A DNA stretch of 32,000 bases from Fastidiosibacter lacustris (GCF_003428155.1 NZ_QLIR01000004.1:60001-92000); one strand, 5' to 3'; positions 11,776 through 18,254 are shown, numbered from the stretch's first letter. Notes: generated by a model not told the origin, from the sequence alone. Numbers and translations: made by a program.

Positions 11776-12327
11776 TTAAAAAGAGGCAGTAAAGGTTATG
11801 CTAAAACTTCCATTAAACTTTTCATTCTGACTGCTTGGTATAATAGAGTCATTACCATCACCTTTGATATAAACCTCAAAACCTATAACACCTTTATTCT
11901 GACTAATTGTGATATCACGACCAACACCATCATTTTCACATATTGGTTGTTGTAAATTGACCTCTATACACATTTTATATTGGATAGTACATGCAGGGCA
12001 CGCCCCACCTGTATTTACAGCAGATAGAATACAATTTCCTTGTTGATCTTTATTATTACATTGAAGTGAAGCTGTAAGCTTATCAGTATTATCCCAATTG
12101 ACCTTTCCTGATAGTTTGTCAGACTCAAATCTTGGAAGACGATTATTTTTATCAAGCTTAAGTTGTGGGACTGTCAAATTTGTATTTAGCATATCAAGTT
12201 TGACTGTTGGGCTGTTAGTTATATCAAGCTGTAAGTCAAACTGAAGGTTTTGTGGTGTAGGTGTTGTGGCAAAACAAGAAAGTGTTACCAGTAAACCCAT
12301 TAAAAAAGTTGTTACTTGTCTTATCAT
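11776..12327 (-). CDS. fimbrial (chaperone-usher) pilin-like minor subunit, Cys-rich
   Basis: Preferred start is the ATG at 12327 (AGGTGA 5 nt upstream) rather than the GTG at 12336. Signal peptide ...LVTLSCFA|T. The C-terminal beta-strand motif F.G.......TASF resembles the other subunits in the operon. Contains 8 Cys in the mature part. Confidence 0.55.
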   Translation of the reverse strand: MIRQVTTFLMGLLVTLSCFATTPTPQNLQFDLQLDITNSPTVKLDMLNTNLTVPQLKLDKNNRLPRFESDKLSGKVNWDNTDKLTASLQCNNKDQQGNCILSAVNTGGACPACTIQYKMCIEVNLQQPICENDGVGRDITISQNKGVIGFEVYIKGDGNDSIIPSSQNEKFNGSFSITFTASF

Positions 12328-12347
12328 TACTTTCACCTAAATTAGGA

Positions 12348-12869
12348 CTAAAAATTAACCGAAACTGTGCAAATAAGTTGACCACGATATTGACCCTGTG
12401 GATACGCAGTGCCGCTTTTTTGCTTGACCAAAAGCAAGAGATTAAACTTTTGGTTTGGTACTTGAGGGGGGAGGCGTACAGGTGCAGTACCTAATGCTTG
12501 TGCCGTGCCATTTATACAAAGATAACTTTCTGGGATAATTTGTTGTGAAGTTGTAGAACCACTTAATGTCATCATGCCTTTATTACATTTTATTGTGTAC
12601 TGTGGGTTAGCAATGTTACTCAAGAATCCTACTTCTTGAGATTTCCCTGCATATATATAATCATGATTATTATTAATCCCTGTTATGCCTGAGAGCACCG
12701 AACTAACGTCATTCCTAAATACGATATCATTAGCATTAACCTCAATAGAAAACCAAGGCTTTACCACAAGGGTGGCGTCAATTTCAACCTCGACATTTTC
12801 TCCGGTACTTGAGGCAAAGCTGATCACACTATATAAAGCAAGTAGTAAGGAGGACAAAAATTTTAACAT
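12348..12869 (-). CDS. fimbrial (chaperone-usher) pilin-like subunit
   Basis: RBS GAAGGA. Signal peptide MLKFLSSLLLALYSVISFA|S. C-terminus GQYRGQLICTVSVNF fits the pilin pattern G.Y.G + alternating hydrophobic strand + terminal aromatic. About 150 aa when mature. Confidence 0.6.
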   Translation of the reverse strand: MLKFLSSLLLALYSVISFASSTGENVEVEIDATLVVKPWFSIEVNANDIVFRNDVSSVLSGITGINNNHDYIYAGKSQEVGFLSNIANPQYTIKCNKGMMTLSGSTTSQQIIPESYLCINGTAQALGTAPVRLPPQVPNQKFNLLLLVKQKSGTAYPQGQYRGQLICTVSVNF

Positions 12870-12882
12870 AACTATTCCTTCT

Positions 12883-13908
12883 CTAATTAAAAGATGCCGT
12901 TAACAAAAGGATAACCTTACTCTTATAAGTGCCCGGTTTTGCGTGTTTGACTGTATTTTCATCTGCACTTAAATTAACGTTAATCTCATTGGACTGTTGT
13001 GTTATAGCAATAGGTTGTTCTTGTCCGATTGTTGTAACCAATTGTTGATTTATTTTTAACTGAAACGGAATTGTGTTACTTCCATCTCTTTCATCTTGTA
13101 AAACACAAGAACTATTCGATTGTGTACAGCTTTTAAGTTTTACTTTAATATTATTTGCATTGGTAGCATAGGGAATGGTTACTATTGCGCCATAATCATT
13201 ACCAAAATGATTATTCTTAGTTAGTGTGGCTTGGTAATTTGCTTGTCCTGTTAGTTTGATATAAGGGTCAAAGTTAAGTGTTATATTCAAGTTATTATTA
13301 ATGGGAATATCTATATCATTTCTTATTGACCGCGGTGTTTTTGGATCATATTGAGTAAGCCAATATACCCCCTGTATATTAACACTACCTGTACAATTTG
13401 AAATACCAATTGTATCAGCAAGATTAATGCTATCAAATGTGAAACTCAACTGCCTAATACGATATCTATCAGAAGATTTGATATTAAAACGAAAAGGACT
13501 GCTTGTTGATGAAGGAATGGAGGAATTGTTAAGATGGAAATTATTTCTATCCCCTGCCACAGTAACAGAGCCTTTCAAGCTAATACTATTAGTGCACTGT
13601 AAAGTAAAAGGCGATACAATATAGTTTACATTATCTCTGTTACAGTAGTAGTTGAAATAGCCACAATAGTAAGTGAAGTTACCAGTTAATGTTTTTCCTA
13701 TCGCTCCAGTTAAATCAATTCCACTAACATTAAAATTTAATTTATTGTTAGCGATCAAATTATTTGTAAAGTCAATGTTGTTAATCAATCCCCTTGATGA
13801 TTTAATCGTTTTATTAGCTAAATCTACCTTAAAAGTTAAATCAGTTGTCTCTGCATAACTAAGTGTAATTGAGATATATCCAATTAAAATTGTTAACCAT
13901 TTTTTCAT
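12883..13908 (-). CDS. two-domain fimbrial tip adhesin-like subunit
   Basis: Preferred start is the ATG at 13908, one nucleotide after the usher TAA, with GAAGGGG upstream. Signal peptide MKKWLTILIGYISITLSYA|E. About 320 aa when mature, roughly twice pilin size, as for CfaE/CooD/CsuE-type adhesins. C-terminus GTYKSKVILLLTASFN is pilin-like. Lies immediately downstream of the usher. Confidence 0.55.
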   Translation of the reverse strand: MKKWLTILIGYISITLSYAETTDLTFKVDLANKTIKSSRGLINNIDFTNNLIANNKLNFNVSGIDLTGAIGKTLTGNFTYYCGYFNYYCNRDNVNYIVSPFTLQCTNSISLKGSVTVAGDRNNFHLNNSSIPSSTSSPFRFNIKSSDRYRIRQLSFTFDSINLADTIGISNCTGSVNIQGVYWLTQYDPKTPRSIRNDIDIPINNNLNITLNFDPYIKLTGQANYQATLTKNNHFGNDYGAIVTIPYATNANNIKVKLKSCTQSNSSCVLQDERDGSNTIPFQLKINQQLVTTIGQEQPIAITQQSNEINVNLSADENTVKHAKPGTYKSKVILLLTASFN

Positions 13909-13909
13909 T

Positions 13910-16498: not shown

Positions 16499-16664
16499 TA
16501 AAAACTTACTTTAATTTAACTGGACGGTTGAGTTATCAAGACCGACCATACTTGAGATGCTGGCACTTTTCTTCATGTTAAGAAAAGTTTTCTTTCTAAA
16601 CGGATTCCCATGAAGTGTTTAGACTTATCGTGAAAATCCCGCCAGCGGCAGTATTCAGCTTCGC

Positions 16665-16683
16665 ATGGCAAGTGATTTGCCAT
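16665..16683 (-). promoter_or_regulatory. 7-bp stem-loop about 50 nt downstream of the pilin stop
   Basis: ATGGCAA-gtgat-TTGCCAT. No U-tract follows on the minus strand. Confidence 0.3.
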
Positions 16684-16732
16684 AATAATTCTTAGCGTAG
16701 GATAAAGTTCTACACTTTAATTATTAATTAAA

Positions 16733-17266
16733 CTAAAAGGTTGCTTCAATCTTAAAGTCAAAGTTGCCTTCATACTTTCCTTCTTGGTATTTATTAGTTC
16801 CATCACCGTAAATTACTTTTAAGTCTTTCGCCCCCCCCCCTGGTGTTAAGGATTTAAAATTTATTTTTGAAGTAGGGCTCTTAATTTCATTGCCACCTAT
16901 TTCGAACGTTACTGGCATTTCTTCACCGTGACCACTCGTAGTATTTTTGATTACATATTCATTACTACTACTATTTGTTGGTCCAGAAGTAATAGAAATG
17001 CCAATCTCCCCTGTACTGCTATCAGTCCACTCTAAGAAGTCAGTAATAATAGACTCTTGTTTGTTGGTTGACATAGCCGCTCTTTTTGGTGCACTTGTAG
17101 ACTTAGTTGTTGAAAGTTTTAAAACGTCTTGTAGTGTTTTCGGACCTACTTCTGTGCTAACTATAATTTGTACTGTATCAGTTACAGTAGCAGCATAGGA
17201 AGCCACAATACCGCCCAATAAGCTTGCCATTACGGTTGTAGCTAAAATTTTTTTACTTTTTATCAT
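16733..17266 (-). CDS. major fimbrial subunit (chaperone-usher pilin)
   Basis: Strong RBS (AAGGAG, 7 nt before the ATG). Signal peptide ...GGIVASYA|A. The mature N-terminus ATVTDTVQIIVSTEV has alternating hydrophobics and resembles a donor strand. C-terminus GKYEGNFDFKIEATF. Lies between chaperone and usher, as in cfaABCE/cooBACD-type operons. Confidence 0.7.
   Translation of the reverse strand: MIKSKKILATTVMASLLGGIVASYAATVTDTVQIIVSTEVGPKTLQDVLKLSTTKSTSAPKRAAMSTNKQESIITDFLEWTDSSTGEIGISITSGPTNSSSNEYVIKNTTSGHGEEMPVTFEIGGNEIKSPTSKINFKSLTPGGGAKDLKVIYGDGTNKYQEGKYEGNFDFKIEATF
16831..16840 (-). repeat. homopolymeric tract, C10 on plus strand = G10 on the pilin coding strand
   Basis: Read directly: tttcg CCCCCCCCCC tggtg. 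On the coding strand this is cca ggg ggg ggg gcg, encoding P-G-G-G-A in ...SLTPGGGAKDLK... It is the longest G/C homopolymer I found; the others reach at most 6. Confidence 0.95.
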
Positions 17267-17465
17267 TACATACTCCTTTTTTGGTTGTTGACTTGAGTTT
17301 CAATTACTAATTGGCTTAAATTTGTGTCGAAATAGGTTCTTAGAAGTAAATAATTTGTAACCTTTCCTAGCTCAATCTAAACAAGAAATAATTAAATCAT
17401 TTAGCTATTCGCATTTTTATTTTTGTCTTTTTTTGTAAATTTAGGTTTAACTTTTTACTTTTTGG

Positions 17466-18254
17466 TTACGCAAGGAAATAGCGCTGTTTTTGGGTATTCT
17501 TACCATTTTCAAAAACTTGAATTTCAATGTTCTCTTTAAGAAAGGATGTATCTATGACACGATTTTTTTGTGGATAAACTTTATATTTTTGTTCAAACAC
17601 ACCTTGTTGGTTACAATATGAATGATTGACAGTAACACCGCCTGTTTTCAATGAGTCATTTGTTTTACATTTTGCTTTAACTTCTGTTTCAATAACGGCA
17701 TTACCATTGTTATAAATATAAATAGCCTCATCTTTTTGCGAAACGGTTGTTTTGTAAAAGGCGTTTTGTGGTTGAACGGCTAAAATACTGGAAAAACCTA
17801 TCGTAATTCCTACACCTGCGGATATTCCGTCATTATCTGCAAGTTCTTTATCTGAAAGCGCAAAACCATCTTCTTTTTTTGGTGCAACAGGTGTCATATT
17901 GACACGATAATAAGAAACCTCATCTTTATTTCTGCCTTTTGGATAGTAAAAACGAATATTTTTTGACTGTCCAGGTGGAATAATTAACCTACTTGGTGTC
18001 ACGAATAATGATTCTGACATTTCTTTTGGCAGAAGTGTTTTTTCAGTTTTATTATCAGATAGTGGATTTTTTACTTCCACTAGTTCAATTTTGACATAAG
18101 CTGTTTTATTGGGATCATCATTATGAATTGTTTTAGAAAAAGTGACTTTATCTTCAGACCAAATATCATAAAGATCATCAATAGCAATATTTGCCATTGA
18201 TAAGCTGTAAAAACCACATAACATCGTAATTGTTAGTGTTATAACACCCTTCAC
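17466..18254 (-). CDS. periplasmic fimbrial chaperone (PapD-like fold expected)
   Basis: Preferred start is the GTG at 18254, since AAGGAG lies 6 nt upstream (AAGAAGGAGAACAAAGTG). This gives signal peptide VKGVITLTITMLCGFYSLSMA|N. The mature protein of about 240 aa contains LFVTPSRLIIPPGQSKNIRFYY, a chaperone-type strand pattern. First gene of the fimbrial operon. Confidence 0.65.
   Translation of the reverse strand: MKGVITLTITMLCGFYSLSMANIAIDDLYDIWSEDKVTFSKTIHNDDPNKTAYVKIELVEVKNPLSDNKTEKTLLPKEMSESLFVTPSRLIIPPGQSKNIRFYYPKGRNKDEVSYYRVNMTPVAPKKEDGFALSDKELADNDGISAGVGITIGFSSILAVQPQNAFYKTTVSQKDEAIYIYNNGNAVIETEVKAKCKTNDSLKTGGVTVNHSYCNQQGVFEQKYKVYPQKNRVIDTSFLKENIEIQVFENGKNTQKQRYFLA

What the first reader, a model, noticed from the sequence alone, without database searches (positions are those of the whole stretch)
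11776..18254. Six-gene chaperone-usher operon with alternate (class 5/CS1-like) gene order plus two extra downstream pilin-like genes
Seen in sequence: the minus-strand order is chaperone (GTG start with perfect SD), major pilin, a 345-nt structured spacer, usher, a 341-aa two-domain subunit starting 1 nt after the usher stop, a 173-aa subunit and a 183-aa Cys-rich subunit. All four subunits end with the pilin-type strand: GKYEGNFDFKIEATF, GTYKSKVILLLTASFN, GQYRGQLICTVSVNF and KFNGSFSITFTASF. Established knowledge: the order chaperone-major-usher-tip adhesin is that of the alpha/class 5 fimbriae (cfaABCE, cooBACD, tcfABCD, cblBACD). Those operons normally stop at the adhesin. Archaic Csu-type systems have several small subunits but place them before the chaperone. 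Inference: this looks like a hybrid or atypical layout, with two additional subunits after the adhesin, one with 8 cysteines, whose roles are not obvious. They could be alternative tips, a terminator or anchor subunit, or antigenic variants.
Basis: partly seen in the sequence, partly recalled or inferred. Interest (0 to 1): 0.5.

Follow-up and report, generated by a model that had tools for sequence, protein, structure and literature searches.

The report
Alternate chaperone-usher pilus operon, expanded
This is a genuine adhesive-pilus (chaperone-usher) gene cluster of the "alternate" CS1/CFA-I type in the freshwater bacterium Fastidiosibacter lacustris. It carries two extra lineage-specific genes that look like pilus subunits, plus a conserved seventh gene, which makes it an unusual variant of a well-known machine rather than a new kind of system.

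Summary
Six co-directional minus-strand genes at 11776-18254 encode chaperone, major pilin, usher, a two-domain adhesin-like subunit and two small secreted proteins. The window is Fastidiosibacter lacustris.

The usher carries the alpha-clade Pfam domains TcfC and CooC_C. The chaperone profile hits only the solved alpha-class chaperones EcpB and CfaA. The gene order is the CS1 order.

The two extra proteins have no Pfam or PDB sequence hits, and homologues exist only in Fastidiosibacter and Cysteiniphilum. They do share with the major pilin and the adhesin an in-register C-terminal strand motif, Sec signal peptides, N-terminal strand-like segments and all-beta predictions. The low-confidence Cys-rich model matches CfaE and other pilins best. 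The 173-aa fold search is inconclusive.

The six-gene layout recurs in four or more Cysteiniphilum loci, always followed by a W-rich repeat gene. It is absent from ECP-type, CS1-type, paralogous and outgroup loci.

Extras found: a G10 tract in the major pilin gene, replacement of the pilin allele between two strains that are 99.5% identical, and a chaperone nonsense mutation in the other strain.

Verdict: a new variant of a known kind, of moderate interest. The subunits' roles are inferred; tip adaptors are favoured.

The parts
17466..18254 (-). Periplasmic chaperone of the alternate (FGA/EcpB-CfaA) type. 262 aa from a GTG start with an AAGGAG Shine-Dalgarno sequence; signal peptide MKGVITLTITMLCGFYSLSMA.
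   Evidence: Profile of 4 orthologues hits PDB EcpB 5dfk (3.5e-7) and CfaA 6k73/4ncd/4y2o (1e-6 to 5e-6), and nothing else below 0.1. Weak PapD_N hit, 0.0097. The HMM hits chaperones of CS1-order loci at 1e-26 to 1e-39, against 1e-8 to 1e-11 for EcpB-type chaperones. Start codon.
16733..17266 (-). Major pilin, 177 aa. Strong Shine-Dalgarno sequence, signal peptide, N-terminal alternating-hydrophobic segment ending in VGP, and a C-terminal strand GKYEGNFDFKIEATF.
   Evidence: Position and size. Homologous to the C-terminal domain of the 341-aa subunit (hhalign 86%, E 5e-6). It is the fastest-evolving gene of the cluster: 16-45% identity between loci, and 29% between two C. litorale loci whose ushers are 93% identical. 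The allele is replaced between two F. lacustris strains. No Pfam hit, including Fimbrial_CS1.
16831..16840 (-). G10 homopolymer (C10 on the + strand) inside the major pilin gene, at codons 143-146. A candidate slipped-strand ON/OFF switch.
   Evidence: It is the only G/C run of 7 or more in 32 kb; expected number of runs of 10 or more is 0.003. G9 or G11 truncates the pilin to 148 or 154 aa and removes the C-terminal strand. The tract is absent from the other strain's allele and from Cysteiniphilum orthologues.
16388..16732 (-). 345-nt structured intergenic spacer between the major pilin and usher genes. Probable attenuator or mRNA-stabilising element that sets the ratio of major subunit to usher and minor subunits (inferred).
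   Evidence: MFE -86.9 kcal/mol, z = -4.6 against 100 shuffles. No Rfam family. No ORF, not repeated, and not conserved in sequence outside F. lacustris. Every orthologous locus keeps an 84-213 nt hairpin-bearing spacer at this position.
13910..16387 (-). Outer-membrane usher of the alpha (alternate) clade, 825 aa.
   Evidence: Pfam TcfC 5.4e-19 and CooC_C 3.9e-13, both above gathering cut-offs. 100% identical to an NCBI F. lacustris 'TcfC E-set like domain-containing protein'. 712 family representatives in 1.84 billion proteins. tblastn to EcpC 4e-36 and CS19 CsdC 1e-8.
12883..13908 (-). Two-domain adhesin-like minor subunit, 341 aa. The ATG lies 1 nt after the usher stop. The N-terminal domain is variable and the C-terminal domain is pilin-like.
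   Evidence: Residues 253-340 align to major pilin 87-177 (hhalign 86%, E 5e-6, and 72%). The N-terminal half is 15-42% identical between loci and the C-terminal half 33-52%. No Pfam or PDB sequence hit. Junction.
12348..12869 (-). Extra minor-subunit candidate 1, 173 aa. Signal peptide; N-terminal strand-like VEVEIDATLVVKP; invariant Cys95 and Cys167; C-terminal strand GQYRGQLICTVSVNF.
   Evidence: Orthologues sit in the same position in all 6-gene and 5-gene loci. AF2 pLDDT 70.7, all-beta, with long first and last strands. The PDB Foldseek search is inconclusive: no hit at or below 1e-3, with fimbrial BPSL1626 and AfaE-3 at TM 0.3-0.46. Its HMM weakly hits a Cysteiniphilum major pilin (2.7e-4 in a small ORF set). 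hhalign to the major pilin is 41% over the C-terminal 23 columns. The family occurs only in Fastidiosibacter and Cysteiniphilum.
11776..12327 (-). Extra minor-subunit candidate 2, 183 aa and Cys-rich (6 mature Cys, including a CPAC motif). N-terminal strand-like LQFDLQLDI; C-terminal strand KFNGSFSITFTASF.
   Evidence: Orthologues occur in every 6-gene locus and are absent from C. litorale. AF2 pLDDT 54, all-beta from residue 50. Top PDB Foldseek hits are CfaE 3vac (2.2e-4), CS20 pilin 8eht (3.5e-4), FimG, CfaE-CfaB 3f83, CfaA-CfaE 6k73_C and FedF, at low TM of 0.3-0.4. Cysteine count.
10073..11614 (-). Conserved seventh gene: a 513-aa secreted or membrane protein with 9-residue G-x-x-W-L repeats. 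Function unknown. It may belong to the system.
   Evidence: 52-56% identical to the gene that starts 15-22 nt after the Cys-rich gene in Cysteiniphilum L001/L009, L008 and L010. Absent, together with the Cys-rich gene, from C. litorale. No Pfam, NCBIfam, PDB or plasmid hit. Repeats.
7855..9744 (-). Paralogue of the W-rich gene, 629 aa, with a signal peptide and two TM-like segments.
   Evidence: 42% identical to the Cysteiniphilum W-rich protein. Hydropathy. No Pfam hit.
10021..10050 (.). 13-bp palindromic hairpin just after the 513-aa gene. A possible bidirectional terminator that ends the transcription unit.
   Evidence: Terminator-like site in the consensus scan. The scan total was not above the shuffle expectation, so this is weak evidence.

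Best explanation
The locus encodes an alternate (alpha-clade) chaperone-usher pilus of Fastidiosibacter lacustris, laid out in CS1/CFA-I order and enlarged by two lineage-specific minor subunits.

Proposed mechanism:
- All structural proteins are exported by Sec.
- The FGA/EcpB-type chaperone (262 aa) captures each subunit by donor-strand complementation of its incomplete Ig-like fold. It uses the shared C-terminal strand motif as the common recognition element.
- The TcfC/CooC-type usher (825 aa) assembles the subunits by donor-strand exchange.
- The 341-aa protein is the tip adhesin and initiator: a variable N-terminal receptor-binding domain joined to a C-terminal pilin domain homologous to the major subunit.
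- The 173-aa and Cys-rich 183-aa proteins are additional fibre subunits, because each has an N-terminal donor-strand-like segment and the C-terminal strand. Most likely they are low-copy adaptors or tip-fibrillum components between the adhesin and the rod, analogous to FimF/FimG or CsuA/CsuB.
- The 177-aa major pilin forms the shaft.
- The structured spacer after the major pilin gene probably raises major-subunit output relative to the downstream genes.
- The G10 tract in the pilin gene probably provides ON/OFF switching.

Shown: the alpha-class identity of usher and chaperone, the gene order, homology between the adhesin C-domain and the major pilin, conservation of the layout, and the shared terminal motif.

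Inferred: the pilin fold and incorporation of the two extras, their position in the fibre, and the roles of the spacer and the tract.
For: - Usher: TcfC and CooC_C.
- Chaperone: the profile hits EcpB and CfaA only, and hits CS1-order chaperones at 1e-26 to 1e-39.
- Adhesin C-domain matches the major pilin: hhalign 86%, E 5e-6.
- The in-register C-terminal motif occurs in all four subunits and their orthologues and in none of about 480 other ORFs.
- Signal peptides and N-terminal alternating-hydrophobic segments are present.
- AF2 predicts all-beta folds.
- The top PDB matches of the Cys-rich model are CfaE, CS20 pilin, FimG, FimF, FedF and CupB6, about 19 of the top 50.
- Neither extra resembles the chaperone: hhalign 1% or less.
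- The extras diverge at the rate of the adhesin and major pilin (37-45% identity to the window) rather than that of the chaperone (59%) or usher (73%), as expected for exposed fibre parts.
- The six genes are tightly packed, with 1-, 13- and 20-nt gaps downstream of the usher.
- The layout is conserved in L001/L009, L006, L008 and L010, with a five-gene form in L003/L011.
- Hairpin-bearing spacers occur at the same position in all orthologues.
- A slip to G9 or G11 removes the pilin's C-terminal strand.
Against: - Neither extra protein has any Pfam, NCBIfam or PDB sequence hit.
- Profile-profile similarity to the major pilin or adhesin is confined to the last 15-23 residues.
- The 173-aa model finds no significant pilin in the PDB.
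- The Cys-rich model has low confidence (pLDDT 54, TM 0.3-0.4), so its pilin matches are only suggestive.
- Nothing here distinguishes an adaptor from a terminator or a second adhesin.
- No pilus has been observed in this organism. In the other sequenced strain the chaperone carries a nonsense codon.
Confidence: 0.62

Rival explanations
1. One or both extra proteins are terminator or anchor subunits, like PapH or FimI. They would enter last, block further donor-strand exchange, and fix pilus length and anchoring, rather than sitting at the tip.
For: They have the same features as any donor-strand-competent subunit: an N-terminal strand-like segment and the C-terminal motif. No terminator is known for alpha-class pili, so that role is vacant. 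C. litorale manages with only one of the two.
Against: From my own knowledge: in the Pap and Fim operons the terminator gene lies next to the major pilin gene, upstream of the chaperone and usher, whereas minor genes that lie downstream next to the adhesin gene encode tip components. Here both extras follow the adhesin at 13- and 20-nt spacing. The acceptor groove could not be analysed.
Confidence: 0.15
2. The Cys-rich 183-aa protein, possibly with the 173-aa protein, is a second receptor-binding or alternative tip module. It might polymerise as a separate thin fibre, as EcpD does in ECP, giving the pilus a second specificity.
For: The best structural match of the Cys-rich model is the adhesin CfaE; the FedF lectin domain and CupB6 tip adhesin also appear. 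A Cys-rich 40-residue insert (C90-C130, with a CPAC motif) is the kind of disulfide-stabilised loop seen in binding domains. It is present or absent as a unit between operon types. ECP shows that alpha-class tips can be polymeric (PMC4654587).
Against: At 183 aa it is single-domain size, with no separate lectin domain. The model has low confidence. Its divergence is not higher than that of the 173-aa protein.
Confidence: 0.15
3. The two extras are not pilus parts. They are secreted or periplasmic accessory proteins that work with the W-rich membrane protein downstream, or with the adjacent type IVb pilus cluster, and are merely co-transcribed with the chaperone-usher genes.
For: There is no family-level hit to any pilin. 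The Cys-rich gene and the W-rich gene are present or absent together. The W-rich genes lie between the chaperone-usher operon and a type IVb pilus cluster, both here and in Cysteiniphilum.
Against: The in-register C-terminal strand motif shared with the major pilin and adhesin is hard to explain otherwise. The 173-aa gene is kept in C. litorale, where there is no W-rich gene and no type IVb neighbour. The Cys-rich model matches pilins. The genes are tightly coupled to the adhesin gene.
Confidence: 0.08
4. The extras are silent or alternative antigenic-variant copies of the major pilin.
For: The major pilin is hypervariable between strains. CS14 and the Pantoea CS1-type locus carry two major-subunit genes (the CS14 case is from my own knowledge).
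Against: There is no similarity to the major pilin beyond the last strand. Each has its own start and signal peptide. Each forms its own orthologous family at 37-80% identity across species. The divergent pilin allele of the other strain does not derive from them.
Confidence: 0.02

Closest known systems
Class 5 / CS1-CFA/I fimbriae of ETEC (cooBACD, cfaABCE), Tcf of Salmonella Typhi, and the CS1-like CS33
   Same: Gene order is chaperone, major subunit, usher, two-domain tip subunit. The usher has TcfC and CooC_C domains. The chaperone matches CfaA. The adhesin is about 340 aa with a C-terminal pilin domain related to the major subunit. The chaperone HMM scores CS1-order chaperones far above ECP ones.
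   Different: There are six or seven genes rather than four core genes (PMC4133393, PMC13504359). The subunits have no Fimbrial_CS1 or CblD-type Pfam hit. The usher is more similar to EcpC (4e-36) than to the CS19 usher CsdC (1e-8). Two extra subunit-like genes follow the adhesin. The host is an environmental relative of Francisella.
E. coli common pilus (ECP/Mat; ecpRABCDE)
   Same: Alpha-clade usher with TcfC and CooC_C; EcpC is the best named usher hit. EcpB is the best PDB hit of the chaperone. ECP is precedent for an alpha operon with genes beyond the four core ones (PMC4654587).
   Different: ECP order is major, chaperone, usher, EcpD, second chaperone. Here the extras are not chaperones (hhalign 1% or less). 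There are no MatB/EcpA or EcpD_C domains.
Tip fibrillum adaptors of classical and archaic pili (FimF/FimG, PapK/E/F, CsuA/CsuB)
   Same: Small minor subunits encoded next to the adhesin gene. FimG and FimF are among the top structural matches of the Cys-rich model. This is a functional analogy for how the extras may work.
   Different: These belong to different usher clades (gamma, pi, sigma, with PF00577 ushers). There is no sequence relationship. Csu minor genes precede the chaperone.
Paralogous alpha-type chaperone-usher loci of Cysteiniphilum, Dongshaea marina and Vibrio sinus (ushers P0008-P0013)
   Same: These are the nearest outgroup ushers, at 26-31% identity. Their chaperones match at 1e-26 to 1e-39, and in most of these loci the chaperone is encoded upstream of the subunit and usher genes. 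They are often adjacent to OmpR-type regulators.
   Different: None contains a homologue of the 173-aa, Cys-rich or W-rich proteins. Their downstream genes differ in size: 339+94+335, 480+100+509, 415+398+400, 420, and 237 aa.

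Membership tests
Alpha (alternate) chaperone-usher family, Nuccio & Baumler alpha clade | The usher is of the TcfC/CooC type (TcfC E-set domain plus CooC_C) rather than the classical PF00577 Usher type. 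| tested here: met
   TcfC 5.4e-19 (68 bits, cut-off 29.4) and CooC_C 3.9e-13 (49.7 bits, cut-off 29). No PF00577 hit.
Alpha (alternate) chaperone-usher family, Nuccio & Baumler alpha clade | The chaperone is of the non-classical FGA/EcpB-CfaA type. | tested here: met
   The profile hits EcpB 5dfk (3.5e-7) and CfaA 6k73/4ncd/4y2o (1e-6 to 5e-6) over about 150 residues, including the TP..L..P....IRF and YYR segments. PapD_N is sub-threshold only.
Alpha (alternate) chaperone-usher family, Nuccio & Baumler alpha clade | The usher falls inside the alpha clade on a phylogeny with reference ushers of all six clades. | not tested
   No reference set of beta, gamma, kappa, pi and sigma ushers was available. 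Only proxy evidence exists: the Pfam domains and the best named hits EcpC and CsdC.
Alpha (alternate) chaperone-usher family, Nuccio & Baumler alpha clade | Subunits are assembled by donor-strand complementation and exchange. | not testable with these tools
Only indirect features are available: N-terminal strand-like segments and the C-terminal strand motif.
Class 5 fimbriae (CFA/I, CS1, CS2, CS4, CS14, CS17, CS19, PCFO71) | A four-gene operon: chaperone, major subunit, usher, minor adhesin. | tested here: not met
   The order of the first four genes matches, but two further subunit-like genes and a conserved seventh gene follow.
Class 5 fimbriae (CFA/I, CS1, CS2, CS4, CS14, CS17, CS19, PCFO71) | The major subunit belongs to the CS1-type pilin family (Pfam Fimbrial_CS1) and the tip subunit to the CfaE/CooD/CblD family. 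| tested here: not met
   No Pfam hit for any subunit at E up to 1. hhalign to CS1-type majors from L015 and L018 is 2% or less. The profiles are shallow, so this could reflect divergence rather than non-homology.
Class 5 fimbriae (CFA/I, CS1, CS2, CS4, CS14, CS17, CS19, PCFO71) | The usher is closely related to CooC, CfaC or CsdC. | tested here: not met
   CsdC matches at only 1e-8 (23% identity), against EcpC at 4e-36.
ECP / Mat pilus | Layout is EcpA major, EcpB chaperone, EcpC usher, EcpD polymeric tip, EcpE second chaperone. MatB/EcpA and EcpD_C domains are present. | tested here: not met
   The gene order differs. There is no second chaperone (chaperone HMM and hhalign negative on the extras). 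There are no MatB or EcpD_C hits. Compare the true ECP loci L004, L013, L014 and L016.
Archaic (sigma) Csu-type pili | A sigma-clade usher (PF00577), SCPU-type subunits, and minor subunit genes upstream of the chaperone. | tested here: not met
   No PF00577 or SCPU hit. The minor genes lie downstream of the usher and adhesin. The 'hybrid' idea is therefore not supported.

The most novel reading that the evidence does not exclude
An alpha-class (alternate-pathway) pilus has evolved a multi-subunit tip: the adhesin plus two dedicated adaptor pilins, one carrying a disulfide-rich CPAC loop. It would be functionally coupled to a W-repeat inner-membrane protein encoded immediately downstream. This would be the first heteropolymeric tip fibrillum, and the first non-chaperone, non-usher accessory factor, in the alternate pathway. 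It would have arisen independently of the Fim/Pap and Csu tips.
Probability: 0.25. Interest if true: 0.5.

Novelty: new variant of a known kind. Interest (0 to 1): 0.36.

Why it matters
Alternate-pathway pili have been studied almost only in enteric pathogens (CFA/I, CS1, Tcf, ECP, cable pili). There they are treated as two-subunit fibres, a rod plus a tip.

A conserved six- or seven-gene form in environmental and emerging-pathogen relatives of Francisella would matter in three ways:
- It shows that this clade, too, can build more complex fibres.
- It gives names and a testable role to three orphan protein families that are currently annotated as hypothetical.
- It flags a surface structure under strong diversifying and on/off selection: pilin allele replacement, a G10 tract, and a chaperone knockout.

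Cysteiniphilum includes emerging human pathogens and a candidate coral pathogen. That makes this structure a plausible colonisation factor worth testing.

Tried and rejected
- **Sequence-level identification of the subunits.** Pfam, NCBIfam and PDB searches with single sequences and with profiles gave nothing for the major pilin, the adhesin or either extra.
- **Profile-profile links to CS1-type majors from fetched loci.** Insignificant.
- **Homologue searches for the two extras.** They returned only Fastidiosibacter and Cysteiniphilum orthologues.
- **Structure prediction with locus-derived alignments.** The permitted alignments had only 5-6 sequences, hence the modest confidence.
- **Survey of alpha loci by degenerate-pattern scanning.** The large alignments had no stretch conserved enough to search with. 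The genome scan found only Cysteiniphilum. Both metagenome scans found nothing.
- **The spacer as a known RNA, mobile element or small ORF.** No Rfam hit, no repeat, no ORF.
- **The extras as a second chaperone, as in ECP.** Rejected: hhalign 1% or less, and no chaperone-HMM hit.
- **The extras as pilin variant cassettes.** Rejected.
- **W-rich protein identity.** No hit in Pfam, NCBIfam, the PDB or plasmids.
- **Nuccio & Baumler 2007.** The paper is not held in the library.
- **Promoter and terminator scans.** Not above shuffle expectation.

Full report
**1. What is in the sequence**

- Chaperone: 17466-18254.
- Major pilin: 16733-17266, 177 aa.
- Spacer: 345 nt, 16388-16732.
- Usher: 13910-16387, 825 aa.
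- 341-aa protein: 12883-13908.
- 173-aa protein: 12348-12869.
- 183-aa protein: 11776-12327.

The chaperone's GTG start is preceded by AAGGAG and 6 nt, and yields a normal signal peptide. The upstream ATG has no Shine-Dalgarno sequence, and the orthologues agree with the GTG start. The 341-aa gene's ATG lies 1 nt after the usher stop. The next two gaps are 13 and 20 nt.

The spacer folds far better than shuffles (z = -4.6). The only factual slip is the cysteine count of the last protein: 7 in total and 6 in the mature protein.

**2. Organism and family**

The usher is 100% identical to an NCBI protein of Fastidiosibacter lacustris, a relative of Francisella.
- Its Pfam hits are TcfC (5.4e-19) and CooC_C (3.9e-13), the domains of alternate (alpha-clade) ushers. 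The classical Usher family does not hit.
- A four-sequence chaperone profile hits exactly the solved alpha-class chaperones, EcpB (3.5e-7) and CfaA (about 1e-6), over about 150 residues.
- An exhaustive phmmer search finds 712 family representatives. Only the Cysteiniphilum orthologues are close; the next nearest are at 26-32% identity.
- Against plasmids, the best named ushers are EcpC (4e-36) and, far weaker, the class 5 usher CsdC (1e-8).
- The chaperone HMM, however, scores chaperones of CS1-order loci (Dongshaea, Vibrio, Pantoea CS1-type, Cysteiniphilum paralogues) at 1e-26 to 1e-39, and ECP chaperones at only 1e-8 to 1e-11.

The system is therefore alpha-class with CS1-type order, but it belongs to neither the class 5 group proper nor the ECP group.

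**3. The subunits**

No subunit has a Pfam, NCBIfam or PDB sequence hit.

Internal comparison using all orthologues shows that residues 253-340 of the 341-aa protein are homologous to residues 87-177 of the major pilin (hhalign 86%, E 5e-6). Its N-terminal half diverges faster than its C-terminal half (15-42% against 33-52% identity). That is the class 5 adhesin architecture.

All four subunits end with the same strand in exact register: [YF]-x-[GS]-x-h-x-h-x-h-x-[AV]-x-F. A loosened form of this pattern ([AVST] at the -3 position, F/Y at the end, up to three trailing residues) hits only these four and their orthologues among 522 ORFs.

The three small proteins have Sec signal peptides followed by alternating-hydrophobic segments that end at a proline:
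- TVQIIVSTEVGP
- VEVEIDATLVVKP
- LQFDLQLDITNSP

These resemble donor strands. This is an inference; compare Pro13 of CfaB, mentioned in the abstract of PMC6760452.

**4. Are the two extras pilins?**

- Homologue searches with profiles return only Fastidiosibacter and Cysteiniphilum proteins, all annotated as hypothetical.
- AF2 with the small permitted alignments gives an all-beta 173-aa model (pLDDT 70.7) and a low-confidence all-beta Cys-rich model (pLDDT 54).
- Foldseek against the PDB is inconclusive for the 173-aa model. There is nothing at or below 1e-3. Two fimbrial proteins appear, at TM 0.3-0.46.
- For the Cys-rich model the top hits are CfaE (2.2e-4), CS20 pilin (3.5e-4), FimG, FimF, CfaE-CfaB, CfaA-CfaE and FedF. 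Roughly 19 of the top 50 are chaperone-usher pilins or adhesins, although TM-scores are only 0.3-0.4.
- Neither extra resembles the chaperone, so the ECP solution of a second chaperone is excluded.
- Their divergence between loci (37-42% identity to the window) matches that of the adhesin and major pilin, not that of the chaperone (59%) or usher (73%).

I take them to be pilus subunits with about 0.7 confidence. Their place in the fibre is inference.

**5. Is the layout routine?**

The same six genes in the same order occur in:
- Cysteiniphilum sp. 6C5 / 19S12-1, with two copies in one genome (L001/L009 and L008);
- C. halobium (L010);
- a Logan metagenome contig (L006).

C. litorale (L003/L011; usher 48% identical) has a five-gene form that lacks the Cys-rich gene.

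Other alpha loci carry no homologue of the extras. These are:
- ECP-type loci in E. coli, Providencia and Enterobacter;
- a Pantoea CS1-type locus;
- three paralogous Cysteiniphilum loci;
- Dongshaea and Vibrio.

Described alpha operons have four core genes (PMC4133393; CS33 in PMC13504359) or the ECP set (PMC4654587). A comparative-genomics paper on Cysteiniphilum does not mention pili at all. The layout is therefore a conserved, lineage-specific variant and not a described type.

**6.

A 513-aa protein with 9-residue G-x-x-W-L repeats (10073-11614) is 52-56% identical to the gene that starts 15-22 nt after the Cys-rich gene in every six-gene Cysteiniphilum locus whose contig continues. It is missing, together with the Cys-rich gene, from C. 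litorale. The window has a second paralogue at 7855-9744, with two TM-like segments. Nothing identifies this family.

It lies between the chaperone-usher operon and a type IVb pilus cluster at 88-7755, with TcpQ, secretin, ATPase and platform genes. The same neighbourhood exists in Cysteiniphilum. Its allegiance is therefore uncertain, although the tight spacing in Cysteiniphilum favours co-transcription with the chaperone-usher genes.

**7. Signs of selection and switching**

The major pilin gene contains a G10 tract (C10 at 16831-16840 on the + strand). It is the only G/C run of 7 or more in 32 kb (expected number of runs of 10 or more: 0.003). A ±1 slip truncates the pilin before its C-terminal strand.

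A second F. lacustris assembly (L012) is 98.8-99.8% identical gene by gene, from murJ to the second W-rich gene, apart from the major pilin gene. Three things differ:
- The mature part of the major pilin is replaced by a divergent 168-aa allele without the tract. The boundaries are sharp, at the signal peptide and at the last 10 or so codons.
- The chaperone carries TGG->TGA at the invariant Trp of the YDIW motif.
- The 173-aa gene has a 6-nt indel.

Across loci the major pilin is the fastest-evolving gene. For example, it is 29% identical between two C. litorale loci whose ushers are 93% identical. This is what is expected of an exposed, immunogenic or phage-targeted fibre.

**8. Mechanism**

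Most likely the chaperone binds each subunit through the shared C-terminal strand. The usher starts assembly with the 341-aa adhesin, adds the two minor subunits as adaptors or tip components, and then polymerises the major pilin.

The structured spacer is kept as a hairpin-bearing gap of 84-213 nt in all orthologues, though not in sequence. It probably uncouples major-subunit expression from the downstream genes. The G tract gives ON/OFF switching.

Rivals are a terminator or anchor role, a second adhesin, non-pilus accessory proteins, and variant cassettes (nearly excluded). They are listed with their tests.

**9. Verdict**

This is a real, intact alpha-class chaperone-usher operon: a new variant of a known kind, through lineage-specific expansion by two subunit-like genes and an associated W-repeat gene. 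Interest is moderate. The biology is plausible rather than surprising, but three orphan families and a probably phase-variable, hypervariable pilus in a little-studied lineage are worth recording.

Noticed in passing
window 16831-16840 (C10 on the + strand; G10 in the minus-strand major pilin gene): This is the only G/C homopolymer of 7 or more in the window (expected number of runs of 10 or more: 0.003). It lies in frame within the major pilin gene. G9 or G11 truncates the protein to 148 or 154 aa and removes the C-terminal strand. It is a candidate slipped-strand phase-variation switch, or else an error-prone site in the assembly.
   Followed up: partly
window ~16828-17174 vs L012 4175-4492 (F. 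lacustris GCA_024208055.1): Two F. lacustris assemblies are about 99.5% identical across roughly 14 kb, but the mature part of the major pilin is a different allele (177 vs 168 aa, with no megablast alignment). The boundaries are sharp, at the signal peptide and at the last 10 or so codons. This indicates allelic replacement or diversifying selection.
   Followed up: yes
L012 3187-3189 (equivalent to window ~18159-18161): In the second F. lacustris strain the chaperone has TGG->TGA at the invariant Trp of the conserved YDIW motif, so the pilus system is probably inactive there. The 173-aa gene also has a 6-nt indel (175 aa).
   Followed up: yes
window 10073-11614 and 7855-9744 (minus strand): These are two paralogous proteins (513 and 629 aa), each with a signal peptide, about 4-5% Trp and triplets of 9-residue G-x-x-W-L repeats. 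The longer one has two TM-like segments. One copy always follows the six-gene operon in Cysteiniphilum. There is no hit in Pfam, NCBIfam, the PDB or plasmids, so this is an orphan family of unknown function.
   Followed up: partly
window 88-7755 (+ strand): This is a type IVb (TCP/BFP-like) pilus assembly cluster: TcpQ-domain protein, secretin, T2SSE ATPase and T2SSF platform protein. It converges on the W-rich genes. In Cysteiniphilum L008 a bundlin-like pilin and the same cluster follow the W-rich gene, so two different pilus systems are neighbours in both genera.
   Followed up: partly
L018, L019, L021 (Cysteiniphilum marinum and related); L008 6701-7399; L010 6587-7309: Cysteiniphilum carries at least three further paralogous alpha-type chaperone-usher loci (ushers 26-28% identical to this one) with different downstream gene sets. 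These loci, and the orthologous six-gene loci, usually sit next to an OmpR-type response regulator, with or without a kinase. The F. lacustris window instead has an unidentifiable 272-aa ORF (18455-19273) upstream.
   Followed up: partly
window 11776-12327, residues 90-130 of the 183-aa protein: There is a cluster of six cysteines, including a CPAC (CxxC) motif; five are invariant in the orthologues. Three of five orthologues give weak zf-RING_4 hits (0.016). It could be a disulfide knot, a redox motif or a metal site in a surface subunit.
   Followed up: no
window 10021-10050: A perfect 13-bp palindromic hairpin lies immediately after the 513-aa gene. It is a possible bidirectional terminator marking the end of the transcription unit.
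   Followed up: no
L003 1-5957 (C. litorale): The five-gene version of the operon in C. litorale lies next to a Dot/Icm-like type IV secretion cluster (DotD, IcmT, TraI-like lipoprotein, T2SSE ATPase, TraG/TrwB coupling protein). This suggests it may sit on a mobile or conjugative element.
   Followed up: no
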